Of a stretch of DNA of 64,000 bases, positions 1 to 41,929 are shown in pieces (within the stretch, counting starts at the first letter, position 1; each line of letters starts with the position of its first letter). A model generated the notes under the pieces. That model saw only the letters and a program-made list of their open reading frames with translations, was not told where the DNA came from and made no database searches. The stretch lies in the NCBI GenBank assembly GCA_024226935.1, contig JAAELK010000222.1, positions 27,237-91,236 of the forward strand. The letters are read 5' to 3'. A program made the translations under genes and the position numbers. The DNA comes from Desulfobacteraceae bacterium. Lineage in GTDB: Bacteria; Desulfobacterota; Desulfobacteria; Desulfobacterales; Desulfobacteraceae.

Positions 1-1244
1 CCGATATCATCCGAATGACTGCCGATCTTTTAAACGGTGGAAAAAACGCCGTTGGCTCCATCACTTCGGGGGGCACGGAAAGCATCTTGCTGGCAATCAA
101 AACCTATAGGGACTATGCCAAAAAGAAAAGGCCCTGGATAGTCCGGCCCAATATAATCGTCCCGGAAACAATCCATGTTGCCTTTGAAAAGGCGGCCAAG
201 TATTTCAATGTCAAAATAATCCATGCTCCACTTAAAAAAGATTATACTGTGGATGTAAATAAAGTAAAAAAACTGATCAACAAAAACACAATTCTTCTGG
301 TTGGTTCAGCTCCCAATTATCCCCAGGGAGTTATAGATCCCATTGAAGAGTTAAGCAAACTTGCTTTACAAAAAAATTTACCCCTCCACGTTGACGCCTG
401 TCTGGGTGGATTCTTTCTGCCTTTTTTAAAAATGTTAGGATACAATATTCCAAAGTTTGATTTTTCCCTTCCCGGCGTGACTTCAATATCAGCCGATGTA
501 CACAAATATGGATATGCAGCCAAGGGGGCCAGCACTATTTTATATAAAAGCATGACCTATATGAAACACCAGTTTTTTGTTTACGAAAACTGGCCGGGGG
601 GTGTTTATGCAGGCCCCGGGATATTGGGAACCCGTGCCGGAGGCCCCATAGCTTCAGCATGGGCCAGTATGAATAAAATGGGGGAAGAGGGTTATAAAAA
701 CCTGGCCAAAGTGGTCATGGAAACAACAAACAAATTAATAAACGGGATCAATACAATCCCGGAATTAGAAATCATGGGTAAGCCCGTGATGGGTGTTATA
801 GGATATCGATCCAATTCAAAAAAAGTAAACATTTATGCGGTTGGAGAGATAATGGAACAAAAAGGATGGAATGTCGACCGCCTTCAAAAACCGGAAGGAC
901 TTCATGCAATGGTATCACCTATCCATGAAAAATACGTCGGGCAATATCTTGAGGATTTAAAAACATCGGTTGCAAAAGTCCTGGCAAATCCCGGCCTCGC
1001 AACTTCGGGAGGTGCCGCAATGTATGGTATGATCGCCAAAATCCCCCTTCGCAGCATGGTAAAAAGCACCATTGCAAAGATGATGGAAGATATGTACGAA
1101 GTATCAGGCAAAATGCCCGACTTGAACGATACAGACATCCGGGAAGAAAAAAATATTACCATGACACTTGGAAAATACTATCTTAAGATAATTGAATATT
1201 TTGCCAGGGTTAGGGAAAAATCCTCAGATCATAACCTGGATTGA
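1..1244 (+). CDS. PLP-dependent group II decarboxylase / sphingosine-1-phosphate-lyase-like enzyme (5' end outside window)
   Basis: The frame is open from the window edge. It has the 'SISADVHKYGYAAKGAS' PLP-lysine (HK) motif and 'SGGTESILLA', typical of SPL/GAD-type fold-type I enzymes. Confidence 0.75.
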   Translation, partial: DIIRMTADLLNGGKNAVGSITSGGTESILLAIKTYRDYAKKKRPWIVRPNIIVPETIHVAFEKAAKYFNVKIIHAPLKKDYTVDVNKVKKLINKNTILLVGSAPNYPQGVIDPIEELSKLALQKNLPLHVDACLGGFFLPFLKMLGYNIPKFDFSLPGVTSISADVHKYGYAAKGASTILYKSMTYMKHQFFVYENWPGGVYAGPGILGTRAGGPIASAWASMNKMGEEGYKNLAKVVMETTNKLINGINTIPELEIMGKPVMGVIGYRSNSKKVNIYAVGEIMEQKGWNVDRLQKPEGLHAMVSPIHEKYVGQYLEDLKTSVAKVLANPGLATSGGAAMYGMIAKIPLRSMVKSTIAKMMEDMYEVSGKMPDLNDTDIREEKNITMTLGKYYLKIIEYFARVREKSSDHNLD

Positions 1245-1254
1245 CTCCATACAA

Positions 1255-1280
1255 GATGCGGTATCGCAAGATACCGCATC
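1255..1280 (+). terminator. Perfect 11-bp stem / GCAA loop hairpin just after the stop of the PLP enzyme gene
   Basis: The sequence is gatgcggtatc-gcaa-gataccgcatc. No clear T-run follows, so terminator function is uncertain. Confidence 0.35.
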
Positions 1281-1325
1281 GTCCAGGCACAAAAAAAAGA
1301 CGGAGCCCTTCCGGGGCACAAATTT

Positions 1326-1359
1326 ACTAAGTATTTTCAAGCAGTTTTTGCCAGAACAA
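1326..1359. repeat. Direct repeat, left copy (34 bp, 1 mismatch versus 4765-4798); an orphan copy of the GNAT gene 3' end
   Basis: actaagtattttcAagcagtttttgccagaacaa matches actaagtattttcCagcagtttttgccagaacaa. The reverse complement encodes LFWQKLLENT*, identical to the GNAT C-terminus. Confidence 0.85.
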
Positions 1360-1409
1360 CTGTTTAAATTCTTCTGATATGATATATCTTTTCTCGTATA
1401 ATAGCAGTA

Positions 1410-3131
1410 TTATATATTTTTATTGCTTTCAATTCTAAACAGCTTATCATTTTCAGACAACTCAAGAATAAAGTAATCTTCATTTTTTAATTCATTTGGG
1501 AGCTTGTCTTTAAGTATTGATGCTACAAATTGTATTTCATTTTTATTTACCAATTCAGCAATTTTTACCAACTGATTATCATGCATAAGCTCTTTCTTGT
1601 CATTCAACAAGAAATGCATACATGGGATATTTTCTTCGTCAGCAAAAAAAGTATATGCAATATCAAAACAAGAAATTTCACCTTGTTTTTTTCCGGTGCT
1701 AAAGTTTGTGTTAAAAGCAGTAAATTTATACAATTTTTGCCCTTTTTTATTGAGCACCTTGTCGTATTTTAATGCATATTGTTCGCCATATAATAAGTCA
1801 GAAGTAGAAGAAAAATATTTATTAAACTTATTTAATTGACGTTTTACAATACCCTCAAAACTGCCAGAAAAAAGTTCCTTGTCTATTGACTCCAAGTCAC
1901 CTTCATAAGATCTTAGGTTTTCTTCCACGTCCTCCAATTGTTGAATAATGCTTTCATATTCTCCCTTATTTTTATATTTTTCATTAAGCTCAACAATTAA
2001 TCTCTCCAATTCTTCAAATGAATCAGTTTTTGAAATGGCAGAAGATAATTTTGCTTCTTTTTCCAACAATGTACTGAGAATCAGATTTTTTTCATCTATT
2101 TTATCTATAAGTACAGGTAACTCTTTAGCTATATAGTTGGCTCTTTCCTGAATCATTTGATTATGGTATTGCACCATATCTTCAAATGTTTTCTGAATTG
2201 AAGTCATATTGCTAATAGCTTGGTCATAAATAATACGCAACTGCTGTAAATCTATTTTTGAAGCACTGGATGTTAATTCTCTTGTTGTTTCATCAATCAA
2301 ATCTTTCCTTAAATTTAACGCACCAAGTTCAGAGCTTGTCAAGTTAATTTGATATTTTAAATGATTAAGATTTTGTAAATCTTTTTCAAAATCCTCATTA
2401 ATATTTAAGTTTGATTTCTTTTTATCCAGTACTTCTATCTCATTCTCGATTAACGATAATGCCACTTCATATGCTGATTTCGTCTGGTTTTTTTCTAAGC
2501 GTTTTCTAAAAGTGTCTTCCTGTTTTATTTTTTGGAGTATTTCCTGTTTATCACTCCCTTTTATGAATTCACAGCCTAAAAGAAACAAATGTAATGTTTC
2601 ATACTCTGCATCAGAAGTATACCTGTCAAGCGTCTTGAGTGTGTTGTTAATGCTTAAATCTTTATATCGTATATTGTGAGATATTATCTGTCTAAAGCTA
2701 GGTTTTTTTGCTGTATGTTCAGGAAAGAATAGTTCTGTTAACTTCGGTTCAAATTCACCTTCAACATAATTTACATCATTAATTCTTCTTACTATTTTAT
2801 TGCGTGACAAAAAGTTCCGTTCAATAATTATATTTTGAGCATCTTCATTATCCAAGTTTTCAGCCAGGCATAATGTAATTAAAATATCTTTCTCAACTAA
2901 ATAATCTTTTACTAATTTATATATCTCCTTTTTAGACTCAGGATCTTCATAAATATTCTTTGGATTCGCTCCCAAACAAAAATCAATTAGCTTTAGAACT
3001 GTGGTTTTCCCAACGCTATTTCCAGTAATATGCCCTTCACTTGAATCAACAATAAGATTAATGCCTTTATGAAATTTAATGTTTCGAATAACATTAGAAT
3101 GGCTTGAAATCATAAGATATTTTAAAAACAT
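1410..3131 (-). CDS. ABC-three-component (ABC-3C) system ATPase, DUF2326-like coiled-coil ABC ATPase
   Basis: 573 aa. The N-terminus reads 'IRNIKFHKGINLIVD...TGNSVGKTT' (Walker A). A long K/E/L/N-rich predicted coiled coil follows, then a C-terminal 'CMHFLLNDKKELMHD' region. The start overlaps the upstream ORF by 10 nt. Confidence 0.75.
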   Translation of the reverse strand: MFLKYLMISSHSNVIRNIKFHKGINLIVDSSEGHITGNSVGKTTVLKLIDFCLGANPKNIYEDPESKKEIYKLVKDYLVEKDILITLCLAENLDNEDAQNIIIERNFLSRNKIVRRINDVNYVEGEFEPKLTELFFPEHTAKKPSFRQIISHNIRYKDLSINNTLKTLDRYTSDAEYETLHLFLLGCEFIKGSDKQEILQKIKQEDTFRKRLEKNQTKSAYEVALSLIENEIEVLDKKKSNLNINEDFEKDLQNLNHLKYQINLTSSELGALNLRKDLIDETTRELTSSASKIDLQQLRIIYDQAISNMTSIQKTFEDMVQYHNQMIQERANYIAKELPVLIDKIDEKNLILSTLLEKEAKLSSAISKTDSFEELERLIVELNEKYKNKGEYESIIQQLEDVEENLRSYEGDLESIDKELFSGSFEGIVKRQLNKFNKYFSSTSDLLYGEQYALKYDKVLNKKGQKLYKFTAFNTNFSTGKKQGEISCFDIAYTFFADEENIPCMHFLLNDKKELMHDNQLVKIAELVNKNEIQFVASILKDKLPNELKNEDYFILELSENDKLFRIESNKNI

Positions 3132-3346
3132 AATTCAACCTTGTTTTTTTTTAATTCAGCAATATTTATGAGATAAAGCCAGTCAAGACATAAAACAAAC
3201 ACGGGAAAAGACATTCCCTGAACTTCTTTTGATCTTGCATATAGATCTAGCATCTCAAGCTTATCTTGGTTTTGTAAAACCTGCAAAACAATTGCTCCAT
3301 TATAATAGATGCTGTTTTCAGGATGAATGTTATCAGGAAGCAGCAT
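3122..3346 (-). CDS. Small protein in the position of the ABC-3C 'middle component'
   Basis: 74 aa with no motif I recognise. It is translationally coupled on both sides, with a 14-nt overlap with the effector gene stop and a 10-nt overlap with the ATPase start. Confidence 0.6.
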   Translation of the reverse strand: MLLPDNIHPENSIYYNGAIVLQVLQNQDKLEMLDLYARSKEVQGMSFPVFVLCLDWLYLINIAELKKNKVELCF

Positions 3347-4301
3347 AATTATAACCTTCTGGGTTTTCTAAAATCTTGCATCGAATAAAAGCATCAACCA
3401 CTAAAATATCGACACATAATTCTAACTCATCTATCGGGATATGGATGTAATTTGCACTTACAAGGATTTTGTTTTTTATCTCTTCAATAACAGAATAAAA
3501 AATTTCATCGGAATTTCTATTATTTTTTAGGTTCAAATATGTTCGCTTCATCGTGGCTAATACTGAATTACTCTTATTATTTCCTAAACTATCAAATTCA
3601 GAATACTTGGCATCAACCCTTCCATGATATAAAACATACTCATCAATTGTGTCTTTTGCCGAAGCCAAATCGTTATAAGATATTTTTCTATTTACTTCAA
3701 AACGAATTAAACGGTCTGATTTATTTGCTTCATCCCACTGTTCCTTGGATAGAATATTAATTATTGTTGCCAAATTAGAATCTAACTTTACAATATCAAC
3801 TCCCCCCCCAAGCTCTTTTTTAATTTGCTCATAAACCATTTTTTGCCCATCGACATCCATATTTAATATATTGCGGAGAATAGAGGTGATGTCATAAATA
3901 TCTACTGACGGAGTAAATGATATACCGTGGGGATTTACAAAATTCTTTTTTCTTAAATTTGAAGCATCATTGGCAATAGATATAAATTTAAACGTATAGC
4001 CTAAATATTTTTTCATTATTTTTTTTGATAATGCCGACTCAACTTTTTGTTTGGTATTTGTTGAAGAAACTTGAATAATAATTTTATTTTTATCATCTAC
4101 TAAATCTATAGCTTCCACATTTTGAAGACGGGCATTTAAGTTCTCTAAATTATAACTATAAATCACATTAAACAAATGCTGATAAAAATTCTCAGAATGC
4201 ATATGCAAACTCAACATATTTAGCTTGCCGCCAGTAGCAATCCTATTAGCAAAAATATGCAGTTTCTCTTCAATGTAAGAATAGTATTTAGTCTGATTCA
4301 T
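3333..4301 (-). CDS. SMEK-domain protein (predicted ABC-3C effector component)
   Basis: 322 aa. The N-terminal 'LSLHMHSENFYQHLFNVIYSYNLENLN...VEAIDLVDDKNKIIIQVSSTNTKQKV' is recognised as a SMEK domain. It is the first gene of the three-gene unit. Confidence 0.7.
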   Translation of the reverse strand: MNQTKYYSYIEEKLHIFANRIATGGKLNMLSLHMHSENFYQHLFNVIYSYNLENLNARLQNVEAIDLVDDKNKIIIQVSSTNTKQKVESALSKKIMKKYLGYTFKFISIANDASNLRKKNFVNPHGISFTPSVDIYDITSILRNILNMDVDGQKMVYEQIKKELGGGVDIVKLDSNLATIINILSKEQWDEANKSDRLIRFEVNRKISYNDLASAKDTIDEYVLYHGRVDAKYSEFDSLGNNKSNSVLATMKRTYLNLKNNRNSDEIFYSVIEEIKNKILVSANYIHIPIDELELCVDILVVDAFIRCKILENPEGYNYAAS

Positions 4302-4634
4302 TATTTTTCATTCATCCAGTTCCCGCATTCACATATAACAAGAACATGTGTGGTTCTGTATATCTTACATTCTTTTCATAGTTTGGCAATGAAATCCAGG
4401 TCAAGTACAATTTTTCTAACTGGATATCACTCCAATGTAAAATTATCAAGATTTGATATCATCATTAAAATACCAGGGGACTTCAAAAAAGATATAATGG
4501 CCTGTTGATTAACAGCGAAATTGCACCGGATCAATATATTCATTACAGAAAGTGGCTGCTATATTATCTTGATTCTTGCAAAAAAATACACCCACGCATA
4601 TTTTTGATCCAAACAGCTTTTTGCTTTTTCTGGA

Positions 4635-4768
4635 AAAACCCGTGCTTGGATGAAAGCTTGCCCATATGCAAGGCGCAAGAAAGTTTGAAACCGGAGTGTA
4701 CTCCAGTACATGAGGTTTCAGGCTTTTGCAGCAACACGGCAGATGGGTGAGTTTTCGTTCAAACACTA
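4635..4768. repeat. Structured ~135-bp repeat element, copy A (second copy at 29044-29179)
   Basis: Roughly nine in ten positions match copy B by eye. It contains nested hairpins (cttgc-N6-gcaag, tgtac-N4-gtaca) and a 10-13-bp outer stem. It ends on the stop codon of the GNAT gene. Confidence 0.8.
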
Positions 4769-4798
4769 AGTATTTTCCAGCAGTTTTTGCCAGAACAA
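4765..4798. repeat. Direct repeat, right copy (within the 3' end of the GNAT gene)
   Basis: See 1326-1359. Confidence 0.85.
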
Positions 4799-5257
4799 AG
4801 CTCTGCCCATCCGGGGGTCAAGCTCATAGCCCGCAAATCCAAATTTTTTATAGGAGTTCAGGGCTACTTCATTACCCTCCAGAACCTCAAGGGTTATTTT
4901 GCAGCAATCCCTGTCTTTTGCTATCTGCTCTACTTTTTCCAGCATTAATTGACTGACGCCAAGACCACGAAACTCACTGATAACAATAATATCATGGATA
5001 TTGACCAGGGGCTTGCACTTAAAGGTGGAAAAAGCTTCAAAACAATTTATAAGACCCGCAGCCCTATTGTCCACGTAACAAAGGACGCTAAAAGCATGGG
5101 GTATTTTTGATAAATTTTTTGCCAGGTTCTCTTTTACATTTTCAGCCAGGGGTGTACCCCCACCCATGGGATCATTTGCATAGGAATCCAAAAGATAACC
5201 CATATCGGTTCCATGGCGAATATTGTCAAAGTCAGCTATTATTATTTCAATTTCCAT
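4766..5257 (-). CDS. GNAT family N-acetyltransferase
   Basis: 163 aa. It has the acetyl-CoA motif A 'FRGLGVSQLMLEKVEQIA' and the typical GNAT C-terminal 'ALNSYKKFGF'. Confidence 0.85.
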   Translation of the reverse strand: MEIEIIIADFDNIRHGTDMGYLLDSYANDPMGGGTPLAENVKENLAKNLSKIPHAFSVLCYVDNRAAGLINCFEAFSTFKCKPLVNIHDIIVISEFRGLGVSQLMLEKVEQIAKDRDCCKITLEVLEGNEVALNSYKKFGFAGYELDPRMGRALFWQKLLENT

Positions 5258-5328
5258 TGATCAATTGTTCTCCTCTATCTATCCTTTATTGCTCTATCCA
5301 GCGTGAAATTGTCAAACAGCCACCAAAC

Positions 5329-5685
5329 CTAGACATACTCATCATATTTTTTGGACGATCCCCTCACTTTTTCGGCGGGATATTTGATTGCATTTTTCTC
5401 TATTTTATTGTCGACTACCTCTTCGATATCGATGTCCAGCCTATCGGCCAGACGAAATAAATACATTGCTACATCTGCAATTTCTTCACCGATTTCGTGT
5501 TTTTTAACTGGATCGGCAACGATATTTTCAGACTGTTCCATATTCAACCATTGAAATTTCTCAAGTAATTCTGAAGCCTCTATTGATAAGGCAATGGCTA
5601 AATTTTTAGGGTTATGAAATTGATTCCAATCCCTTTCATCTGCAAATTTTTGAAGTTGTTTTTGAATCTGTTTAATACCCATCAT
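5329..5685 (-). CDS. MazG-like nucleotide pyrophosphohydrolase (dCTPase-like all-alpha NTP-PPase)
   Basis: 118 aa. Motifs present are 'FADERDWNQFHNPKNLAIALSIEASELLEKFQW' and 'EEIADVAMYLFRLADRLDID'. Confidence 0.8.
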   Translation of the reverse strand: MMGIKQIQKQLQKFADERDWNQFHNPKNLAIALSIEASELLEKFQWLNMEQSENIVADPVKKHEIGEEIADVAMYLFRLADRLDIDIEEVVDNKIEKNAIKYPAEKVRGSSKKYDEYV

Positions 5686-5974
5686 GTTTCCTGGTCCAAT
5701 TTATATGAAACTCCCGATATAGCAGAAGAGAGTTTCTATCTTTGTTGTGGGCGGAACCCAGGATTAAATCCTTGGTCCGCCCATGGCGGTTATTTTCAAT
5801 TTTCCCGGATACTCTTGTGTACCCAGGCTGTGCATTGTGCAAGGCCACAAAAAAAAATTAAATCTTCCTTTAATATTAATAAAACCCTATAGATATCAAA
5901 TATTTGCCGGAATATCACCATATTTTTTTTACCAGGCGGGTAAAAAAATTTTCCCCCGCAAATATTTTTCCAGG

Positions 5975-6003
5975 TTGACTTTCCTGGCCCAGCCCATTAA
6001 AGA
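5975..6003 (+). promoter_or_regulatory. Sigma70-like promoter (TTGACT-17 nt-TAAAGA) upstream of the protease/CPBP genes; part of a module duplicated at 36985-37013
   Basis: The hexamers have 17-nt spacing. The spacer 'ttcNNNNcccaNgcccat' and the downstream leader are shared with the GGDEF gene upstream region. Confidence 0.5.
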
Positions 6004-6065
6004 GGAATAAGGAAAGGGTATTCTTAAATCACAGGCCCGAAAAATATAAAACATCAGGAAAAACC

Positions 6066-6776
6066 GTGACTTCAATAAAATCAATTCCAGTCAAAACCTT
6101 GGTAGTTCTATTTTTGTCCTGGTTTTTAATCTGTCCCCATTGCTTTGCAGGCAAAAATTCACAGGCAACCTATTCTAAAATAGCCGCAAAAGTGATGCCC
6201 GCCGTTGTCACGATTATTGTTTATGATTACAATGGCAAAATCGAAAATATAGGCAGCGGTTTTTTCTACAATGAAAAGGGAGATATCCTGACAAACAGCC
6301 ATGTACTTACCAAAAACACAAGGGCTGAAATTAAAACAAAGTCGGGAAAAAAGTATCCCATCGGATCAATTATTGAGAGAAATGAAAAAACAGATATTGT
6401 CCGGGCCCACACCCGCATTTCCAATAGGACTCCTTTTTTAAGGATTTCCCGGAACATTCCTGCCATGGGTAATCAGATCATGGTTGCAGGAAGCCCCATG
6501 GGCCTGGAACAAACCATCACCAACGGTATTATCTCAGCATGGCGAAAAATTCCAGCCTGGGGCAGAGTAATGCAGATATCGGCTCCCATATCACCAGGTT
6601 CCAGCGGCGGACCGGTTTTAAACATGGCAGGGGAAGTGGTTGGAATAGCTACCTGCCAAATGATCCAGGGACAAAACCTTAATTTTGCCGTTCCCGTTGA
6701 CAATATTTTTAATGAGCCAAAATCCACAAAGCTGAAATTTTATAAAAATGAGAAAGGCATCACCATAATTGAATAG
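6066..6776 (+). CDS. Secreted trypsin-like serine protease (S1C/DegP-type protease domain, no PDZ)
   Basis: 236 aa with a GTG start. It has a signal-like N-terminus, 'GSGFF...ILTNSHVL' (His) and 'SPGSSGGPVLN' (Ser). Confidence 0.8.
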   Translation: MTSIKSIPVKTLVVLFLSWFLICPHCFAGKNSQATYSKIAAKVMPAVVTIIVYDYNGKIENIGSGFFYNEKGDILTNSHVLTKNTRAEIKTKSGKKYPIGSIIERNEKTDIVRAHTRISNRTPFLRISRNIPAMGNQIMVAGSPMGLEQTITNGIISAWRKIPAWGRVMQISAPISPGSSGGPVLNMAGEVVGIATCQMIQGQNLNFAVPVDNIFNEPKSTKLKFYKNEKGITIIE

Positions 6777-7395
6777 ATTTCCAAGGGGCTGGTATCTTCT
6801 GGTTTCTATTTTCATAATTTTGGTAATTGATACCGGAATATCCTTTCCTGCCCATTTATCTCCCCTGGCCCTTATTGCAATCACCAGATTTGTCCAAACC
6901 CTGGTTCTTCTGGCCCTGATTTTCCTGGGTTCCGGGGGCACACGTTCTGTAGGACTTACCGGAAACAATTTATTTTCAGGGATAAAAACAGGCCTTCTCT
7001 GGTCTTGCCTTGCTGGAGCTTGCGCAGTTGGGGGGATAGGGCTTTTATATCTTGCAGGCATACATTTGCCAGGTCAAATTTATGCCTTCCCAGGAGGGAA
7101 AAATATTTTTGCATATTTAGGGATCGCCTGTTTTTTAAGCCCCATTGCTGAAGAACTGTTTTTCCGGGGATTTTTATATTCTTATTTTAGAAAAAAAGGC
7201 CTCTTTGTCGGCCTTGCCGCAAGCTCCTTTTTATTTGCCCTGGCCCACTTTTCCCAAGGTGGTCTGCCCCTGATTCAGTTTGCAGGAGGCATTTTATTTG
7301 CCCTTTCCTTTGAATATTCAAAAAGCCTGGCGGCCCCTTTGATCATACATATTTCAGGAAATCTGGCAATTTTTGCCTGGGGATATTTTTTATAA
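6769..7395 (+). CDS. CPBP family intramembrane glutamic endopeptidase (CAAX/Abi-like)
   Basis: 208 aa and multi-TM. It has the motifs 'PIAEELFFRGFLY', 'FALAHF' and 'IIHISGNL'. It overlaps the protease gene by 8 nt. The start (TTG) is uncertain. Confidence 0.8.
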   Translation: MNRFPRGWYLLVSIFIILVIDTGISFPAHLSPLALIAITRFVQTLVLLALIFLGSGGTRSVGLTGNNLFSGIKTGLLWSCLAGACAVGGIGLLYLAGIHLPGQIYAFPGGKNIFAYLGIACFLSPIAEELFFRGFLYSYFRKKGLFVGLAASSFLFALAHFSQGGLPLIQFAGGILFALSFEYSKSLAAPLIIHISGNLAIFAWGYFL

Positions 7396-7659
7396 AAAAA
7401 ATTTAACCCACCAACTTTACTTCTGCTTTAAGATGCCATGATCCCCATGGGGAAAATAACAAACAAATTGCATTATAAAATTTAATGGGATACGTTTAAT
7501 TTTACTTATTTCTTAAAGACAATAAGTTGTAAAAAAAGTTCTTTAATTAAAGTTACCGACAATTTAAAATACCCAAGTTTCCTGTTTTACTTTTTATACC
7601 AAATTAAAACTCCATGAAGATGACTATTAATCTCTAATCAGATAAATCCGGGGGGAAAT

Positions 7660-10600
7660 ATGATTAATATTAACAAGGCGGCTAAACGAGAACTTGTCAA
7701 ATTAAAAGGGGTCGGTGCAATATCGGCCGAAAAAATTTCTGAATTTCGTAAGAAAGGTGGGGTAATAAACTCCATTTCCGAACTAAAAGTTATTTGTAAT
7801 ATTCAGGAAAGATATGTGGAAGCACTCAAAAGTGAAATTGCTTTTTCCGATGTGAATGCTGAATTGGAAAAACCCCACGGACCCTGGCAAACCATAAATC
7901 CCGGTTTTGATAATTCCATGACGGATGTAAAATTTCATCTGTTTAATTTTAAAGTCAAATTCCAGGGACAAGATGATACCAACCTGCCTGATATTACTGG
8001 TTATCAATTAAGCGTCGGTTACAAAACAACAAGATCCCGTGCAAGAAGTAAAATATCTTATACTCAAAAAATTATAAATTATAATCTTGATAATTCATCC
8101 CATCTGGATATAGCCATACCAAAAACCAATCTTGCCGAAAACAGTTTTAATCTTATTCTTAAACGTCCCGATGGGGATCAAATTTATAACTCAACTCTCC
8201 AGATAGATGAAAACAAAGAAGTAATTATTAATCTTCCAGTTTTTGATAATGCAAAACTTTTTGTTAAAATATTAAAGCAGCCCGGAGTTAATTATGAAGG
8301 TTATAAACTTGAGTATACCTTAAAAATAAACCGGGGCGGATCGGGCATCGATACCCGCAAAAAGAACCATGAATTTGCATCGGTGAATGAAATTGCCCTG
8401 GAATGGGACTGCTTTGGATCCATTGAAAATATAAATATAGAACTATTAAGTCCAAATGGAGAACAAATCCTTGAACTGGACAAAACCCTGGAAGAGATTG
8501 AGACGGTTAATAACAAGAAAATTATTGAAATAAAATTACCCGAACCCGCAATAATTGATTACACGATACAGCTTGCAGAAGATATCAATTTGTTAACCAA
8601 CCCCTACCTTGACCACAAAATCATTCTTACCTTTGATCTGATTAATCCCCAAACCCTTAATTTTATCAAACGAATAAGTCGTTCATTTGATATTGATTCA
8701 AAGGGGCGGGCAAAAATAGTTTTTAATCACTACGCCCTTGTTGAGATGATGTCCCTAGAAGTAAAAGCACCGGGGGGAGAAATTATAAGTAAAAAAGAGA
8801 TCGCCCATGATGAGATAATCCCCAGTGGTGAGGTCAAAATCAATGTTCCTCCCCGGAAGATAAGTCTTGCCCAAAATATTGAAAAAATGCCGGAACGCCC
8901 AAAAAAAACAACATGCAGGGTTATCGACGCCGACGGGGGAAAAAAATTTACAGATGTCCAGGTAATCATTTATACAGCCACCAGGCAAAACCCTGAAGAA
9001 GACGATTTCAAGGCACTGATTATCAACCGCACTGAAACCAACGGCTATTTTATTATCGATACTCCCCAGGATTATTTTACTGGAGCCTTTGCACGAATCG
9101 GCATTCCGGGAAAAGAATATACCCATGGCAAAACAATTGATGTTCCTGTTCTCTTGGATGAAGACAATGTTATAATTATTACAAACGGTGAACCTGTTAT
9201 CAGCAAAAAACTATTTTTCCCGGCATCAATAATCCTAGTAGTCGATTCCGACCTTGAAGATGTTGAGGAATGTAATAAAAACAATTGTAACGATCTGAAT
9301 TTCCATAAACATAAAAAAATCATAGATGAGTTTTCTTATTATACTGTGGTAAGAACCACGGAACCTTCAATCCAGGGTTATACCCTTGAAGAAGATGCCC
9401 AGATGACTGTGGCTCAAATTTTAGATATCATACCATTATCTTCACAAAGCGATGGCAAAAAGATAAGTATCCCATTTGAACTTCATCAAAAAAATATTCG
9501 TAAAAATATTCTTCTCAAACATATCAATGACAAAAAAGGCCTGACACCGACTACCTTGATAAAAGCCATCAATGAAAGCGACGCACAAAAACTTCGCCAG
9601 GAGATAAAACCTGCTGCAAAAATCAAAGCCATCGGGCGGCACACTTTAGATATGGACAATGCCATCGACTGGGACAAGGATCCTACAATTTACCAGGCAA
9701 CAACACTTTCCCACGGGCATCTTTTGCAATACAAACAAGAATGGGTCAATGACGGCTACTCCATGGGAGATCTTTTATATAGCCTTCCCTTGGCTCCCGG
9801 ACAAAAAAAACAAATAGTTGTCCTTGATTGGGAACGCCGCGAAACAGCAAGCCGGGAAGAATCCCAGGAATATAACGAGCAATTGAATAATTTCCTGGGT
9901 AAAGACAGGGATGTGAGTGAAGTGGTATTTGGGATACTCAATGAAAACACGGCCGGAGGATCATCTGCAAGAACTTCTTCGGCAAGTGGCGGCCTAGGTC
10001 TTGGTTTTGCCGGTGAAAAATTCAGTGGCGTACTTGGAGTTTCCGGAGGCGCAAGCAAGGCAAGTTCCCATGCATGGCAGGATTCTTCACGATCTTTATC
10101 CTTAAATGATCTTCAGCAGATCAGGGATAAAACCATACAATCGGCCAATGCAACACGGGGTCAGCGTTCCACAGTAGTACAAAGCGCAGGCCAGGCGGAA
10201 AGATTCGCCGTTGAAACAGAAGTGGTTGCCAACCACAATCATTGCCATTCGCTGACCATACAATATTTTGAAGTCCTGCGGCACCTGAATGTCAACCAGC
10301 GGCTTTCAAGCGTCCAGGAATGTTTGTTTATTCCATTGATAATGTCCTCTTTTGATAATCCAAAAATTCTCAGGTGGAGGGAGAGTCTTTATAACCATAT
10401 ATACCCAAGTTACCTGCGCAGGGGTTTTAGCGCAATTGACCGCATTGAACATGATTATGAGGGCAGCGACCTTCCAGAGGGCAGTTTTGCAGATGCCGAT
10501 CTCATCAGCCTTGAAGGACATCTTTATATTAAATTTGAAATACCCTCACCAATAGATTTGGCTACCCATCAAACCCAGGCAGATCTTCTTGCAGCCTATG

Positions 10601-13104
10601 AAAATTTAGGCTTTTTCGGAGATATAATCGTTAGGAACCTGATTCGTATTTTTGAGGCCGAGGCAGAAAAAAAGATCGAGATATTTAATAAATATATTGC
10701 CCCGGAAATTGCGGCGGCCATTGTGGAATATCTGGATTTTCACGCCATAACTAAAGATGGGACAAGTATACATCTTCCCATTGATACCTCTCTTATATCA
10801 AAATTTCAAAACAATAAGAATTTATACCTTACATTACACCAGGATGAAGAAATATCAGGATTAAGCAGAAATAATATCAAAGCCATTACCATCGATAAAA
10901 TTGCTTCTATTACCCTGGGAAATGGTAAAACACTTGGTGAAGCTCTTCCCGACAACACAAAGGTGATAATCAGTTCCGGAACGCTTTCCTACAGCAGTGA
11001 GTATAACTCCGGTAATATTTTCAAAAAATCCCGGATTAATGATGACCTTATCGGATACAGCGGAATCGGAGACGATAATGAAAAGGTGAGAATAAGCACT
11101 CCTCTTTCCCGGCAGGAAAGACATAATCCCCGGAAAAAAGATCTGGAACTTGCCAATAGCCTCCATGACCATTTGAATGATAATATTGAATATTATCATA
11201 AGGTTATCTGGACAAAAATGAGTGCTGAACGTCGATTCATGCTTTTAGACGGTATTCAAGTGACAGATTACTCAGAACAAAAAAATTATCCCGGAGGCGT
11301 CATAAGAAGTGTTTCTTCGGTGGTTGAAAACAGAATTATCGGTATTGTAGGCAATAGCCTGGTTATGCCTGTATCTCCCGGTATGCGCCTTGATCCCAAT
11401 ACCAGGGGCAATGAAGTTGATCTGATCTCCCTTTACAAACCATTGACTCCCGGAGAACCGATCCATGTCAGCCTGCCGACCAAAGGGGTATTTGCAGAAG
11501 CGGTCCTTGGAACCTGTAATAGTTGTGAGCACAAAGAAGATGACAGGTTCTGGAGGTGGAGCGAAGATCCCATCCCTGATTCACCGACTGCCATAAACGC
11601 AGTTGATACCGGTTCCAGAAGAACAGATCCCCTTGATACCACACCTTCTGTCATGGCAACCCCCGTTGTAAACATACAAAATTCACCAACCATTCCCGAT
11701 CCTTCAGGAATGGCCGCCATGAACAGCCTGCTTGGCAAATCTTCATTTACAGATATCACAGGGCTTGATCAAAATCAAAAGAACGCATTGGCAGCCCTGA
11801 CAGCATCATACGATGCAACCAAGTTCATGGCAGGAAAAGCCGCCGATATGTCATCGCTTAACAATCAGCTTGAATCGATTAAAAAGGCTAAATCAAACAA
11901 TTTAATTTCAGATGAAAAAGCAAAGAATCTCACGGAATCGGCCATCAATAAGTCAATTCTTGGAACAAAAGATGAAAAATCAGCAAAACAGATGGATACA
12001 ACGGATGTGGGTAACCTTGCCCAGTCTGCCAATGCAAATGGGGTAGATCTTCTGGTTAAAAGACCATCGGGTGAAACAATCGAAGTTAAAAAACCAAGTT
12101 CCCAAACAGTAGAAGACAGCCTGGCAATGGTTACAATTAACCCGCTATCAGGCGATACGCGATCTTTCAAGCCATCAAAAAATGATAAAACAGGTGTAAT
12201 CAATCTTGAAGCAACCAAAAGCCCCACGGTTAAAGCCACCACATGGTACGTTGCATCGGGAATCGGCAATTTTACAGCTAAAAACAAATTAAAAACGGCT
12301 TTCCAGTGTCTGACACCGGGACTCCACAAATTATCAATTTTTGCCGGACAATATCACCACACAATCCCAATAAGCATTCCACAATTTGTTGAGGTTAAAG
12401 AAGATGCAGCCCTATTTAAAACAGCTCTTCAAACTTTGGGAGTATTCACTCTTAAAAAAGAGATACTTGCCCAGGCCAAAACAACCTGTGATCATATCCT
12501 GAAAACAACAAATGTAAGAACGGTATGGACAATATCAGGAGAAAAACTTCCGACCCACCTCTCTTCACAATATGTCACAATAGTAACATTTAAAGACACT
12601 GGCGCTAAGGGAGCTTTCGGTAAGGCACCGGTATTTCCAAACTATTTTTCATCCAAAGTATATAACGAAAAAATTGAAATCTATCCCGGTGGATATGTTC
12701 AGACTGTTCCCACCACAAGCTCGGTGACCCAGGAAATTCGTGCATTGGTTTCATATATAAAAAACCTTACAACAGTAACACAGGCTTTTGATGATTTTAC
12801 AGCACATTTTTTCGGAAGACTCATCGGTGAAACCATGGCCCATGAGATAATACATACTCTTCTTGGTCACGATGTACATTCTTCGACCCATAACACCCCG
12901 GCAATAGCAAACGACATCATGAATACCGGGGCCCAAAGAAATCTGCCTTCAAGAACAGGATATCAAATTGACATCATAAGTCTTCCCCTCAATGCAACGG
13001 AACAGGACTATTTTAATAAATTTATCGACAAGGGTTTATCCAAAGTCAATCACCTCACAAAAAAGAATCAGGATAAAATGGACAAAATTTTTCCTATTCT
13101 TTAA
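7660..13104 (+). CDS. Giant (1814 aa) multidomain orphan protein: N-terminal ComEA-like HhH, beta-sandwich repeats, conserved Gly/Ser-rich core, C-terminal HExxH zincin-like motif
   Basis: The ORF is uninterrupted, with a good SD (ggggggaaatATG). Motifs seen: 'LVKLKGVGAISAEKISEFRKKGG' (HhH), 'CRVIDADGGKKFTDVQVIIY...TETNGYFII' (CarboxypepD_reg-like) and 'ETMAHEIIHTLLGHD' (HExxH). Confidence 0.85.
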   Translation: MININKAAKRELVKLKGVGAISAEKISEFRKKGGVINSISELKVICNIQERYVEALKSEIAFSDVNAELEKPHGPWQTINPGFDNSMTDVKFHLFNFKVKFQGQDDTNLPDITGYQLSVGYKTTRSRARSKISYTQKIINYNLDNSSHLDIAIPKTNLAENSFNLILKRPDGDQIYNSTLQIDENKEVIINLPVFDNAKLFVKILKQPGVNYEGYKLEYTLKINRGGSGIDTRKKNHEFASVNEIALEWDCFGSIENINIELLSPNGEQILELDKTLEEIETVNNKKIIEIKLPEPAIIDYTIQLAEDINLLTNPYLDHKIILTFDLINPQTLNFIKRISRSFDIDSKGRAKIVFNHYALVEMMSLEVKAPGGEIISKKEIAHDEIIPSGEVKINVPPRKISLAQNIEKMPERPKKTTCRVIDADGGKKFTDVQVIIYTATRQNPEEDDFKALIINRTETNGYFIIDTPQDYFTGAFARIGIPGKEYTHGKTIDVPVLLDEDNVIIITNGEPVISKKLFFPASIILVVDSDLEDVEECNKNNCNDLNFHKHKKIIDEFSYYTVVRTTEPSIQGYTLEEDAQMTVAQILDIIPLSSQSDGKKISIPFELHQKNIRKNILLKHINDKKGLTPTTLIKAINESDAQKLRQEIKPAAKIKAIGRHTLDMDNAIDWDKDPTIYQATTLSHGHLLQYKQEWVNDGYSMGDLLYSLPLAPGQKKQIVVLDWERRETASREESQEYNEQLNNFLGKDRDVSEVVFGILNENTAGGSSARTSSASGGLGLGFAGEKFSGVLGVSGGASKASSHAWQDSSRSLSLNDLQQIRDKTIQSANATRGQRSTVVQSAGQAERFAVETEVVANHNHCHSLTIQYFEVLRHLNVNQRLSSVQECLFIPLIMSSFDNPKILRWRESLYNHIYPSYLRRGFSAIDRIEHDYEGSDLPEGSFADADLISLEGHLYIKFEIPSPIDLATHQTQADLLAAYENLGFFGDIIVRNLIRIFEAEAEKKIEIFNKYIAPEIAAAIVEYLDFHAITKDGTSIHLPIDTSLISKFQNNKNLYLTLHQDEEISGLSRNNIKAITIDKIASITLGNGKTLGEALPDNTKVIISSGTLSYSSEYNSGNIFKKSRINDDLIGYSGIGDDNEKVRISTPLSRQERHNPRKKDLELANSLHDHLNDNIEYYHKVIWTKMSAERRFMLLDGIQVTDYSEQKNYPGGVIRSVSSVVENRIIGIVGNSLVMPVSPGMRLDPNTRGNEVDLISLYKPLTPGEPIHVSLPTKGVFAEAVLGTCNSCEHKEDDRFWRWSEDPIPDSPTAINAVDTGSRRTDPLDTTPSVMATPVVNIQNSPTIPDPSGMAAMNSLLGKSSFTDITGLDQNQKNALAALTASYDATKFMAGKAADMSSLNNQLESIKKAKSNNLISDEKAKNLTESAINKSILGTKDEKSAKQMDTTDVGNLAQSANANGVDLLVKRPSGETIEVKKPSSQTVEDSLAMVTINPLSGDTRSFKPSKNDKTGVINLEATKSPTVKATTWYVASGIGNFTAKNKLKTAFQCLTPGLHKLSIFAGQYHHTIPISIPQFVEVKEDAALFKTALQTLGVFTLKKEILAQAKTTCDHILKTTNVRTVWTISGEKLPTHLSSQYVTIVTFKDTGAKGAFGKAPVFPNYFSSKVYNEKIEIYPGGYVQTVPTTSSVTQEIRALVSYIKNLTTVTQAFDDFTAHFFGRLIGETMAHEIIHTLLGHDVHSSTHNTPAIANDIMNTGAQRNLPSRTGYQIDIISLPLNATEQDYFNKFIDKGLSKVNHLTKKNQDKMDKIFPIL

Positions 13105-41882: not shown

Positions 41883-41929
41883 TTGTTGCTTGAACGACAA
41901 CTCACCCATAAAAAACAAAAATCCCCGGC

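What the first reader, a model, noticed from the sequence alone, without database searches (positions are those of the whole stretch)
1410..4301. Three-gene ABC-3C-type conflict system (SMEK effector, middle component, coiled-coil ABC ATPase)
Three minus-strand ORFs are translationally coupled, with overlaps of 14 nt and 10 nt.

- The 573-aa protein has an N-terminal Walker A (GNSVGKTT), a roughly 300-aa coiled-coil insert and a C-terminal ABC-type region. I recognise this as the DUF2326 / ABC-three-component ATPase.
- The 322-aa protein starts with what I recognise as a SMEK domain.
- The 74-aa ORF sits exactly where the 'middle component' sits.

This family was predicted computationally as an NTP-dependent biological-conflict system (Aravind-group comparative genomics). 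As far as I know it has little or no experimental characterisation, and the biochemical activity of SMEK is unknown. The cassette is strikingly more AT-rich than its flanks.
Basis: partly seen in the sequence, partly recalled or inferred. Interest (0 to 1): 0.7.

Follow-up and report, generated by a model that had tools for sequence, protein, structure and literature searches.

The report
Lamassu anti-phage operon, SMEK nuclease
This is an intact three-gene Lamassu (ABC-3C) anti-phage defence operon whose killing domain is a SMEK-type nuclease, inserted as AT-rich foreign DNA into a Desulfobacteraceae chromosome. It is a correct call, but of a system family that is now well known.

Summary
Three minus-strand genes (3333-4301, 3122-3346, 1410-3131) overlap by 14 and 10 nt, and the block is about 30% GC against about 41% in the flanks.

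Profile searches confirm each assignment:
- Effector: SMEK_N (4e-40) plus CTD10 (8e-35).
- Middle component: MC6 (8e-27).
- ATPase: DUF2326 (5e-22) and PADLOC LmuB (1.5e-9).

The same gene order and the same overlap junctions recur in cassettes from unrelated hosts. All three genes are under purifying selection.

- ABC-3C is now equated with type II ("short") Lamassu (LmuA-LmuC-LmuB, or DdmABC). That family has phage and plasmid phenotypes and cryo-EM structures, and SMEK is a catalogued short-Lamassu effector.
- SMEK is not activity-unknown. The domain matches the solved "Mrr domain" of the Kordia short-Argonaute partner (1.4e-27), and that complex is reported to cleave DNA.

The likely mechanism is inferred, not shown. 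LmuB2-LmuC holds LmuA inactive, aberrant DNA ends release it, and it oligomerises and degrades DNA, aborting the infection.

Side finding: a 34-nt direct repeat brackets the cassette, and three other cassettes have comparable repeats. Verdict: new member of a known kind, modest interest.

The parts
3333..4301 (-). lmuA-like effector gene (322 aa): N-terminal SMEK nuclease domain, flexible linker, C-terminal CTD10 adaptor/oligomerisation domain
   Evidence: Pfam SMEK_N 4.4e-40 and CTD10 7.6e-35; NCBIfam SMEK_N 3.7e-31. AlphaFold model has mean pLDDT 85.9. The best PDB fold hits are LmuA chains but are weak, E>=0.15.
3867..4277 (-). SMEK_N domain (residues 9-145), read as a Mrr-like PD-(D/E)xK-type nuclease. 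E37, D66, Q77 and K86 are invariant.
   Evidence: phmmer hit to PDB 26bh 'Mrr domain from Kordia jejudonensis Mrr-APAZ pAgo' at 6.3e-10; the family profile hits it at 1.4e-27 over the whole domain, with E/D/Q/K conserved. Invariant columns are from 49 diverse homologues. Secondary-structure order is alpha-beta-beta-beta-alpha-beta.
3366..3779 (-). CTD10 domain (residues 175-312), all-helical. Predicted to dock on the LmuB coiled coil and LmuC, and to drive oligomerisation once released.
   Evidence: Pfam CTD10 7.6e-35; helical in the model. The same CTD10+MC6+LmuB chassis carries a different N-terminal domain (weak HNH) in L060/L061. The docking and oligomerisation role is inferred from Lamassu structures.
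3122..3346 (-). lmuC-like middle component (74 aa, MC6 family)
   Evidence: Pfam MC6 7.6e-27 over the full length. It lies between effector and ATPase in all cassettes. dN/dS 0.11-0.16.
1410..3131 (-). lmuB-like SMC/Rad50-type ABC ATPase (573 aa): a split head with a roughly 260-aa coiled-coil insertion
   Evidence: Pfam DUF2326 4.8e-22; PADLOC PDC-M68B 1.9e-30 and LmuB 1.5e-9. Foldseek hits: YydD 9a6c_A 2.7e-12, SMC heads, Salmonella LmuB 9hqx_B 1.1e-6.
3000..3023 (-). Walker A / P-loop G37-NSVGKT-T44 of LmuB
   Evidence: Read directly from the sequence. Invariant in 39 close and 9 more divergent homologues.
1590..1616 (-). Walker B region H506-FLLND-KKE514 of LmuB. D511 is followed by Lys, where canonical ABC ATPases have Glu and other short LmuBs have Gln. 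E514 and H517 are conserved.
   Evidence: Alignment with divergent LmuBs: L060/L061 read hhhh-x-DQ. The published short-Lamassu consensus is hhhhD[Q/S/T/E].
4302..4339 (-). Short 5' leader (ribosome-binding region). This is the only non-coding DNA shared with the nearest cassette.
   Evidence: blastn homology to other cassettes runs from 1410 to at most 4339.
4362..4389 (-). Promoter-like site (TTGCCA-16-TAAGAT), 60 nt upstream of the effector start codon. Candidate operon promoter, not conserved in other cassettes.
   Evidence: Consensus scan only. The number of sites found does not exceed shuffled expectation, so this is weak.
1326..1359 (+). Left copy of the 34-nt direct repeat bracketing the cassette. 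It is a stray copy of the last 10 codons plus stop of the GNAT gene, with one synonymous difference.
   Evidence: the repeat finder D5, 33/34 identical. Unique in the window, with 0 matches expected by chance. Sharply bounded.
4765..4798 (+). Right copy of the 34-nt direct repeat, which is the actual 3' end of the GNAT gene (4766-5257, minus strand)
   Evidence: GNAT Pfam hit.

Best explanation
The locus is a complete, apparently functional type II ('short') Lamassu defence operon, which is the same thing as an ABC-3C system. Gene order is lmuA(SMEK-CTD10)-lmuC(MC6)-lmuB(DUF2326).

Proposed mechanism:
1. The three genes are made from one transcript by translational coupling, which fixes their stoichiometry.
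2. Two LmuB protomers (SMC/Rad50-like ABC ATPases with folded coiled coils) and one small LmuC clamp the helical CTD10 of one LmuA. This keeps the SMEK nuclease monomeric and inactive.
3. The complex surveys DNA. When the LmuB heads and LmuC meet aberrant DNA ends, hairpins or replication intermediates made by a phage or plasmid, the ATP-dependent head cycle opens the complex and releases LmuA.
4. Free LmuA oligomerises through CTD10. This juxtaposes SMEK domains, a Mrr-like PD-(D/E)xK-type fold with an E37/D66/Q77/K86 site, into an active nuclease that degrades DNA indiscriminately.
5. The infected cell dies or arrests, which is abortive infection.

What is shown here: gene identities, domain homologies, conserved residues, synteny, purifying selection and foreign origin. 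What is inferred from homologous Lamassu and short-Argonaute systems: the complex stoichiometry, the trigger, release and oligomerisation, DNase activity and the defence phenotype.
For: - Family assignments: Pfam, NCBIfam and PADLOC.
- LmuB fold: best PDB matches are YydD (2.7e-12), SMC/Rad50 heads and Salmonella Lamassu LmuB (1e-6).
- LmuA: the best PDB fold hits are YydB and LmuA chains, but they are weak.
- SMEK domain: matches the solved Kordia pAgo-partner 'Mrr domain' at 1.4e-27, with all four invariant residues conserved. The literature calls SMEK a nuclease domain and reports DNA cleavage by a SMEK-APAZ/pAgo complex.
- SMEK_N behaves as a swappable effector. It is also fused to NACHT/STAND-TPR and TPR-PIN proteins. 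It is replaced by a weak-HNH domain on the same CTD10-MC6-LmuB chassis.
- Synteny and overlap junctions are conserved from 92% down to about 43% protein identity.
- dN/dS is 0.09-0.26.
- Neighbours elsewhere are defence or mobile genes: Dcm-Vsr-EcoRII, an MmeI-like enzyme, DrmE, toxin-antitoxin pairs and a P4-type integrase island.
- The mechanism template comes from Lamassu cryo-EM and genetics papers. Those papers list SMEK as a short-Lamassu effector and LmuB of about 600 aa as the short type.
Against: - No SMEK-type Lamassu has been tested in the literature I could search.
- The putative active site is non-canonical, D...QxS with the lysine displaced to the next helix, so DNase activity is not guaranteed.
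- LmuC here is only 74 aa. The V. cholerae LmuC must be longer, since residue D117 was mutated in it, so the architecture may differ.
- LmuB has Lys after the Walker B Asp, outside the published D[Q/S/T/E] consensus.
- LmuB and MC6 have no sequence-level match to solved Lamassu chains.
- The LmuA fold matches are not significant (E>=0.15), and the LmuB model is only moderate (pLDDT 69).
Confidence: 0.72

Rival explanations
1. The Lamassu chassis is the same, but the SMEK domain is not a non-specific DNase. It could cut RNA or a specific structure, or act mainly as a nucleic-acid-binding or sensor module, so the outcome differs from the Cap4-type 'shred the chromosome' model.
For: The catalytic constellation is atypical: QxS where PD-(D/E)xK enzymes have (D/E)xK, with the lysine on the following helix. 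No Pfam PD-(D/E)xK family is hit directly. The exact function of the Kordia SMEK system is described as still unknown.
Against: E37, D66, Q77 and K86 are invariant across 49 diverse homologues and in the Kordia domain, which argues for catalysis. The Kordia complex is reported to cleave DNA. PADLOC files the domain under an Argonaute-associated REase model. The domain is exchanged with an HNH-like nuclease on the same chassis.
Confidence: 0.12
2. The operon mainly serves its own mobile cassette. It would act as an addiction, stabilisation or anti-plasmid competition module rather than as host anti-phage immunity.
For: The cassette is foreign DNA with about 30% GC in every host. It is bracketed by direct repeats in 4 of 13 loci and sits in an integrase/relaxase island in Vibrio. 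The V. cholerae homologue DdmABC eliminates plasmids.
Against: No toxin-antitoxin logic is evident, and all three components are needed in studied Lamassu systems. Lamassu family members protect against phages when moved to E. coli. Anti-plasmid and anti-phage roles are not mutually exclusive.
Confidence: 0.1
3. It is a decaying or silent remnant of a horizontally acquired operon and no longer functions in this host.
For: It is a solitary insertion in core chromosome with no other defence genes close by. The promoter call is weak. Its AT-richness could attract xenogeneic silencing, which is an inference.
Against: All three ORFs are intact and full length, with motifs, start codons and overlap junctions identical in geometry to the other cassettes. 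dN/dS against a 91.5%-identical cassette is 0.10-0.26.
Confidence: 0.04
4. It is a housekeeping SbcCD/Rad50-Mre11-like DNA repair machine rather than an immune system.
For: The LmuB fold resembles Rad50 and SMC heads. Lamassu is proposed to derive from SbcCD.
Against: There is no Mre11/SbcD phosphoesterase partner. The distribution is patchy and horizontally transferred, in defence-island and mobile contexts. GC content is foreign. The specific family hits are to ABC-3C/Lamassu models.
Confidence: 0.02

Closest known systems
Type II / 'short' Lamassu: LmuA-LmuC-LmuB, i.e. DdmABC of Vibrio cholerae and LmuACB of Salmonella enterica
   Same: The operon order is effector, small middle gene, then an SMC-like ABC ATPase of about 570-600 aa. 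The effector is an N-terminal enzymatic domain plus a C-terminal adaptor domain. Walker A is conserved and Walker B lacks the catalytic Glu. The systems sit in defence-island or mobile contexts. PADLOC LmuB hits the ATPase, and Foldseek hits LmuB and LmuA chains.
   Different: The effector is SMEK rather than Cap4. LmuC is only 74 aa (MC6). Walker B reads D-K rather than D-Q. There is no sequence-level match to the solved chains. No phenotype or structure exists for this subtype.
ABC-3C systems of Krishnan, Burroughs and Aravind (2020), MC6/CTD10 sub-family
   Same: The Pfam models built from that work hit directly and above threshold: MC6, CTD10 and DUF2326. NCBI and UniRef already name homologues 'ABC-three component system protein'.
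   Different: None in architecture. ABC-3C is the computational name for what is now called Lamassu type II.
SMEK(Mrr)-APAZ partner of the short Argonaute of Kordia jejudonensis (SPARMA; PDB 26bh)
   Same: The nuclease domain is homologous over its whole length (1.4e-27), with the same E/D/Q/K residues. In both systems it is an effector held by an immune sensor. PADLOC model Aga_REase-PNTD1-PNTD2 hits residues 1-180 at 6.5e-21.
   Different: The sensor is entirely different: a guide-loaded Argonaute plus APAZ, against an SMC-like ATPase plus middle component. The C-terminal half is APAZ rather than CTD10.
Bacillus subtilis YydB-YydD (Lamassu; integrative model 9a6c)
   Same: It gives the best structural matches for both large proteins: YydD 2.7e-12 for the ATPase, and YydB (probability 0.94, E 0.15) for the effector. 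DUF2326 is the YydD family (source names).
   Different: About 12-14% sequence identity. The effector domain differs. The 9a6c entry is an integrative model of two proteins only.
Rad50-Mre11 / SbcCD and SMC complexes
   Same: A split ABC head with an antiparallel coiled-coil insertion. They are the proposed evolutionary source of Lamassu.
   Different: The coiled coil is much shorter, there is no Mre11/SbcD partner and no CxxC zinc hook in the sequence, and the locus sits in an immune and mobile genomic context.
PADLOC candidate system PDC-M68
   Same: The ATPase matches PDC-M68B over nearly its full length (1.9e-30, residues 8-553).
   Different: The other two proteins hit no PDC-M68 model. 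I found no description or test of this candidate in the papers searched.

Membership tests
Lamassu type II / short (LmuACB) = ABC-3C | LmuB: an SMC/Rad50-like ABC ATPase of about 600 aa with a coiled-coil insertion between the N- and C-terminal head halves | tested here: met
   573 aa. Walker A at residues 37-44, helical insertion at about 190-448, DUF2326 at 446-568. PADLOC LmuB 1.5e-9. Foldseek: YydD 2.7e-12, Salmonella LmuB 1.1e-6.
Lamassu type II / short (LmuACB) = ABC-3C | LmuA: an N-terminal effector domain fused to a family-specific C-terminal domain that docks on LmuB/LmuC | tested here: met
   SMEK_N plus CTD10, both far above Pfam thresholds. SMEK is listed as a short-Lamassu effector. 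The structural match to LmuA chains is only suggestive, and docking itself was not tested.
Lamassu type II / short (LmuACB) = ABC-3C | LmuC: a small middle component encoded between LmuA and LmuB | tested here: met
   The 74-aa ORF matches MC6 at 7.6e-27 over its full length. Its position is conserved in all cassettes.
Lamassu type II / short (LmuACB) = ABC-3C | Variant Walker B lacking the catalytic glutamate (published short-type consensus hhhhD[Q/S/T/E]) | tested here: inconclusive
   The glutamate is absent, as expected, but the residue is Lys (HFLLND-K), outside the stated consensus. Divergent relatives on the same chassis have D-Q.
Lamassu type II / short (LmuACB) = ABC-3C | A1:B2:C1 sequestration complex, activated by DNA ends, with the effector oligomerising on release | not testable with these tools
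   Known only for Cap4-type systems. No multimer prediction or biochemistry was available here.
Lamassu type II / short (LmuACB) = ABC-3C | Protection against phage or plasmids, typically by abortive infection | not testable with these tools
   Indirect support only: defence and mobile neighbours in other genomes.
SMEK_N / Mrr-like PD-(D/E)xK nuclease domain | Sequence membership in SMEK_N and homology to a solved nuclease-type domain | tested here: met
   Pfam 4.4e-40, NCBIfam 3.7e-31. PDB 26bh 'Mrr domain' at 6.3e-10 for the single sequence and 1.4e-27 for the profile.
SMEK_N / Mrr-like PD-(D/E)xK nuclease domain | Restriction-endonuclease core (alpha-beta-beta-beta-alpha-beta) with acidic and lysine catalytic residues | tested here: inconclusive
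   The model's secondary-structure order fits, and E37, D66, Q77 and K86 are invariant. The motif is D...QxS with a displaced Lys, and no domain-level structural superposition could be run.
SMEK_N / Mrr-like PD-(D/E)xK nuclease domain | Metal-dependent nuclease activity | not testable with these tools
   Reported for the Kordia SMEK-APAZ/pAgo complex (Kim et al. 2020, as cited in PMC10810196).
Integron gene cassette (considered for the flanking repeats) | An attC site: a single long imperfect hairpin with R'' RYYYAAC and R' GTTRRRY | tested here: not met
   The window's 34-nt repeat has neither motif nor a palindrome. The L005 repeat has a suggestive GTTATGT/ACATAAC pair but folds branched and weakly, z -1.5 to -2.5.
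Integrase-borne genomic island (considered for the window's insertion) | att-type direct repeats plus a recombinase gene within the element | tested here: not met
   The direct repeats are present, but there is no recombinase in the 3.4-kb segment or anywhere in the 64-kb window. The ORF 4505-4750 that looked integrase-like by eye has no Pfam or tblastn support.

The most novel reading that the evidence does not exclude
The ~3.1-3.4-kb SMEK-Lamassu operon may itself be a recombinase-less mobile unit.

In the window and in three unrelated loci it is bracketed by locus-specific direct repeats of 25-137 nt, spaced 3.1-3.4 kb apart, and it has no shared element ends. This could mean it enters chromosomes as a circle. 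The mechanism could be a single crossover on a short captured homology, or a trans-acting integrase. That would explain two observations:
- near-identical AT-rich cassettes (>=63-70% protein identity) turn up across Desulfobacterota, Gammaproteobacteria, Campylobacterota and Bacteroidota;
- many homologues assemble as stand-alone contigs of about 3.2 kb.

A second, smaller novelty is that this clade's LmuB has Lys after the Walker B Asp. That may make it a non-hydrolysing switch that relies on a displaced glutamate (E514).
Probability: 0.2. Interest if true: 0.55.

Novelty: new member of a known kind. Interest (0 to 1): 0.27.

Why it matters
This locus adds a clean, intact example of the SMEK-effector subtype of short Lamassu, from a Desulfobacteraceae MAG. 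No member of this subtype appears to have been tested, whereas the Cap4 subtype now has detailed structures.

It would be a good compact test case (3.4 kb, three genes, a 74-aa LmuC) for one question: does the 'sequester, release, oligomerise' logic extend to a different nuclease fold and a minimal middle component?

The link between Lamassu SMEK and the short-Argonaute 'Mrr/SMEK' nuclease means results on one should transfer to the other.

It does not open a new class of system. Current annotation pipelines already name these proteins.

Tried and rejected
1. Integrase remnant in 4340-4764. The 81-aa ORF at 4505-4750 resembled, by eye, the N-terminus of integron-type tyrosine recombinases. It has no Pfam hit even at E<=10 and no tblastn hit in 72,556 plasmids. 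Rejected.

2. Structured RNA in the flanks. There is no Rfam match in 1-8000 at E<=1 and no tRNA or tmRNA in the window or in five related loci.

3. Empty-site proof of insertion. I looked for relatives of the GNAT gene in 185,579 species genomes: the best is 72% identical, in Gammaproteobacteria, with different neighbours. An exact-protein look-up of the GNAT found nothing on record. Relatives of the PLP-decarboxylase in metagenomes reach only 61% identity and have no GNAT nearby. No empty site was found, so the insertion rests on GC content, the direct repeat and the cassette's presence in unrelated contexts.

4. Integron-cassette explanation for the flanking repeats. Motifs are absent in the window, and the L005 repeat does not fold like an attC. 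Not supported.

5. Sequence-level links of LmuB and MC6 to solved Lamassu chains. None were found by phmmer or by a 16-sequence profile. Only fold comparison connects LmuB to them.

6. Fold search of the full-length effector model against PDB and viral libraries. No hit reached E<=1e-3, probably because the model has two domains on a flexible linker.

7. The 135-nt repeat as part of the conserved cassette. It is absent from all other loci.


Full report
OBSERVATION

They overlap by 14 nt (3333-3346) and 10 nt (3122-3131).

GC falls to 0.29-0.31 across about 1250-4500, against 0.41-0.44 on either side. Per gene it is 0.298, 0.320 and 0.291, against 0.408 for the whole window.

The ATPase carries GNSVGKTT at residues 37-44. 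Its AlphaFold model has a long helical insertion at about residues 190-448, so about 260 aa rather than 300. The C-terminal head half matches DUF2326 at residues 446-568.

FAMILY TESTS

- Effector (322 aa): Pfam SMEK_N 4.4e-40 (residues 9-145) and CTD10, 'C-terminal domain 10 of the ABC-3C systems', 7.6e-35 (residues 175-312). NCBIfam SMEK_N 3.7e-31.
- Middle gene (74 aa): Pfam MC6, 'ABC-3C middle component 6', 7.6e-27 over its full length.
- ATPase (573 aa): Pfam DUF2326 4.8e-22. PADLOC gives the candidate PDC-M68B at 1.9e-30 and LmuB at 1.5e-9.
- PADLOC also matches effector residues 1-180 to an Argonaute-associated 'REase' model at 6.5e-21.

The exact proteins are already on record from a Desulfobacteraceae MAG (99-kb contig). 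They are named 'SMEK domain-containing protein' and 'DUF2326 domain-containing protein'.

SYNTENY AND SELECTION

It was run and the synteny holds.

The order SMEK_N+CTD10 / MC6 / DUF2326 recurs in every contig examined that was long enough to show it. It also holds in IMG/VR loci down to about 43% effector identity.

The overlap junctions ATGCTGCTTCCTGA (14 nt) and ATGTTTTTAA (10 nt) keep the same geometry in all five cassettes where I read them. dN/dS against three cassettes is 0.09-0.26 for all three genes.

Neighbours elsewhere are defence or mobile genes:
- Dcm-Vsr-EcoRII;
- an MmeI-like enzyme;
- DISARM DrmE;
- toxin-antitoxin pairs;
- in Vibrio sp. sp1, a P4-type integrase next to guaA, with AlpA, RepA and a relaxase.

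The family is large. The effector has 1,884 representatives at 50% clustering with E<=1e-3. It is also unusually conserved across phyla: 63-87% effector identity and 69-92% ATPase identity in hits named as Vibrio, Arcobacter, Bacteroidetes, Methylicorpusculum, Marinobacter and Plebeiibacterium. The cassette is 28-31% GC whatever the host, with flanks at 45% in two loci. All of this points to recent horizontal spread.

WHAT IT IS CALLED NOW

The literature equates ABC-3C with type II Lamassu, that is LmuA-LmuC-LmuB, or DdmABC in V. cholerae.

A 2025 survey splits Lamassu into 'short' (LmuB about 600 aa) and 'long' (about 800 aa). It lists SMEK, with HNH and lipase, as effectors specific to the short type, and it supplies DefenseFinder models.

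So the family-level statement 'little or no experimental characterisation' is out of date. Cap4-type Lamassu systems have phage and plasmid phenotypes. They also have cryo-EM structures of the sequestered A1B2C1 complex, of DNA-end-bound states and of the active LmuA tetramer.

I found no experiment on a SMEK-type Lamassu.

STRUCTURAL SUPPORT

The LmuB model is moderate (pLDDT 69, heads less confident). Even so, its best PDB matches are:
- B. subtilis YydD (9a6c_A, 2.7e-12);
- SMC, condensin and cohesin heads;
- Salmonella Lamassu LmuB (9hqx_B 1.1e-6; 9hqu) and Rad50.

The effector model is good (pLDDT 85.9). As a two-domain chain it gives no significant PDB hit. The top of the list is still YydB (E 0.15, probability 0.94) and several LmuA chains (9nxx, 9hqx_A, 9uxh_C, 9ny1, 9hr5). 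I treat this as suggestive only.

By sequence, LmuB and MC6 do not reach any solved chain.

THE SMEK DOMAIN

A single-sequence search hits PDB 26bh, 'the Mrr domain from Kordia jejudonensis Mrr-APAZ pAgo', at 6.3e-10. A profile of 49 diverse homologues hits it at 1.4e-27 across the whole domain.

In that alignment E37, D66, Q77 and K86 are invariant, and all four are conserved in the Kordia domain. The model's order of elements is helix (E37), strand (D66), strand (Q77-V-S79), helix (K86), strand. This is the restriction-endonuclease core order.

The motif is therefore a D...QxS variant with the lysine displaced to the next helix. That reading is my inference. No domain-level superposition could be run.

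[quoted passage not shown] It states that a SMEK-APAZ/short-pAgo heterodimer mediates guided DNA cleavage (Kim et al. 2020), while noting that the system's exact function remains unknown.

SMEK_N behaves as a portable effector:
- At 50-62% identity it also heads NACHT/STAND-TPR proteins and a TPR-PIN protein.
- On the same CTD10-MC6-LmuB chassis it is replaced by a different N-terminal domain in L060 and L061. In L060 that domain has a weak, sub-threshold HNH signal.

ATPASE MOTIFS

Walker A (G37..K42-T43-T44), a Q-loop (R147-Q148) and a signature-like S-x-G-K-K-Q-G-E (residues 478-485) are conserved, the Q-loop in most sequences.

In the Walker B region this clade reads H-F-L-L-N-D511-K. Divergent relatives read hhhh-x-D-Q, as published for short Lamassu. 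So the catalytic glutamate is missing, as expected for Lamassu, but here it is replaced by lysine. E514 and H517 are conserved throughout. Whether this LmuB hydrolyses ATP is open.

MOST LIKELY MECHANISM (inferred by homology, not shown here)

1. Coupled translation sets the stoichiometry.
2. Two LmuB and one MC6/LmuC hold the CTD10 of one LmuA, keeping SMEK monomeric.
3. Aberrant DNA ends or replication intermediates of an invader engage the LmuB heads and LmuC, and the ATP cycle releases LmuA.
4. CTD10 drives oligomerisation and assembles an active SMEK nuclease.
5. DNA is degraded and the infection aborts (template).

Rivals are listed separately: a non-DNase SMEK, a cassette-selfish or anti-plasmid role, a silent remnant, and a repair machine.

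HOW IT GOT THERE (side finding)

A 34-nt direct repeat, 33/34 identical, brackets the cassette at 1326-1359 and 4765-4798. It is unique in the window, none is expected by chance, and it is sharply bounded.

The right copy is the last 10 codons plus the stop of the GNAT gene at 4766-5257. The single mismatch is synonymous (CTG against CTT, read directly from the sequence).

Homology to other cassettes covers only 1410 to about 4339. There is no recombinase in the segment or anywhere in the window, which is core chromosome: rpoBC, tuf, ribosomal protein genes, secY and pilus/secretion genes. No empty site could be retrieved.

A systematic test found flanking direct repeats well above shuffled controls in 4 of 13 loci:

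| Locus | Repeat length | Spacing between copies |
|---|---|---|
| Window | 34 nt | 3,439 nt |
| L004 | 25-29 nt | 3,326 nt |
| L005 | 137 nt | 3,110 nt |
| L059 | 50 nt | 3,315 nt |

The repeat sequences are unrelated between loci. Many homologues sit on contigs of 3.1-3.4 kb. An integron explanation was tested and not supported. The mechanism is unexplained.

Inside the bracketed segment, abutting the GNAT stop codon, lies a 135-nt hairpin-forming repeat (4634-4768). It has a 91%-identical second copy at 29044-29180, again starting at a stop codon, and a short third partial copy near 41890.

VERDICT

The system belongs to a family that is now well characterised, and to a catalogued but untested subtype. 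I rate it a new member of a known kind, with modest interest.

Noticed in passing
window 1326-1359 and 4765-4798: A 34-nt direct repeat (33/34 identical, with a synonymous mismatch) brackets the Lamassu cassette. The right copy is the 3' end of the GNAT gene. The pattern suggests an att-like or Campbell-type insertion, but there is no recombinase in the segment or the window, and no empty site was found.
   Followed up: partly
L004 1-29/3327-3355; L005 721-856/3831-3963; L059 5655-5703/8970-9019: Other SMEK-Lamassu cassettes are also bracketed by locus-specific direct repeats of 25-137 nt, spaced 3.1-3.3 kb apart. This holds in 4 of 13 evaluable loci, including the window, and the repeats are well above shuffled controls. 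The repeats share no sequence with one another, and the cassettes share no element ends. The mechanism is unknown.
   Followed up: partly
window 4634-4768, 29044-29180, and a partial copy at about 41885-41912: A ~135-nt intergenic repeat, 91% identical between its two full copies, folds as one long imperfect hairpin (about -41 kcal/mol, z about -2.7). Each copy begins exactly at the stop codon of the upstream gene (GNAT; a GspF/PilC-like gene; a cyclase-family gene). It has no Rfam match and is absent from all fetched loci. It could be an ERIC- or MITE-like element or a 3'-UTR element.
   Followed up: partly
homologue tables: A striking share of homologues lie on metagenomic contigs of 3.1-3.4 kb, about the size of the bare cassette. 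This would be expected if assemblies break at flanking repeats or if the cassette sits in many different contexts.
   Followed up: no
window 1590-1616 (LmuB residues 506-514): In this LmuB clade the Walker B Asp is followed by Lys (HFLLND-K). Divergent relatives on the same chassis have D-Q, and canonical ABC ATPases have D-E. E514 and H517 are conserved in all. The ATPase competence of this clade is uncertain.
   Followed up: partly
proteins P0311, P0316, P0326, P0362, P0367, P0369, P0377, P0381 (representative search): The SMEK_N domain, at 43-62% identity to the window's, also forms the N-terminus of NACHT/STAND-TPR proteins of 770-1,300 aa. One such protein has a C-terminal PIN domain of the TPR-GreAB-C-PIN system. 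SMEK is therefore a shared effector across at least four immune sensor types: Lamassu, short pAgo, STAND and TPR-PIN.
   Followed up: partly
L060 5557-6378 and L061 5638-6468: The CTD10-MC6-LmuB chassis is the same, but the N-terminal effector domain is different and shorter. In L060 it has a weak, sub-threshold HNH signal, and in L061 it has no Pfam hit. This is an example of effector swapping.
   Followed up: partly
window 7660-13104 (+), with 13221-14642 (-): There is a 1,814-aa ORF whose only Pfam hit is an N-terminal helix-hairpin-helix (HHH_3, ComEA-like). Near its C-terminus is a zincin-like HExxH motif (MAHEIIHTLLGH). It is followed by a convergent calcineurin-like metallophosphoesterase gene. 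Function unknown.
   Followed up: no
window 4766-5685 (-): The GNAT acetyltransferase next to the cassette has its closest relatives (up to 72% identity) in marine Gammaproteobacteria rather than Desulfobacterota. It is preceded by a MazG-like pyrophosphohydrolase gene at lower GC (0.356). This neighbourhood may itself have been acquired horizontally.
   Followed up: no
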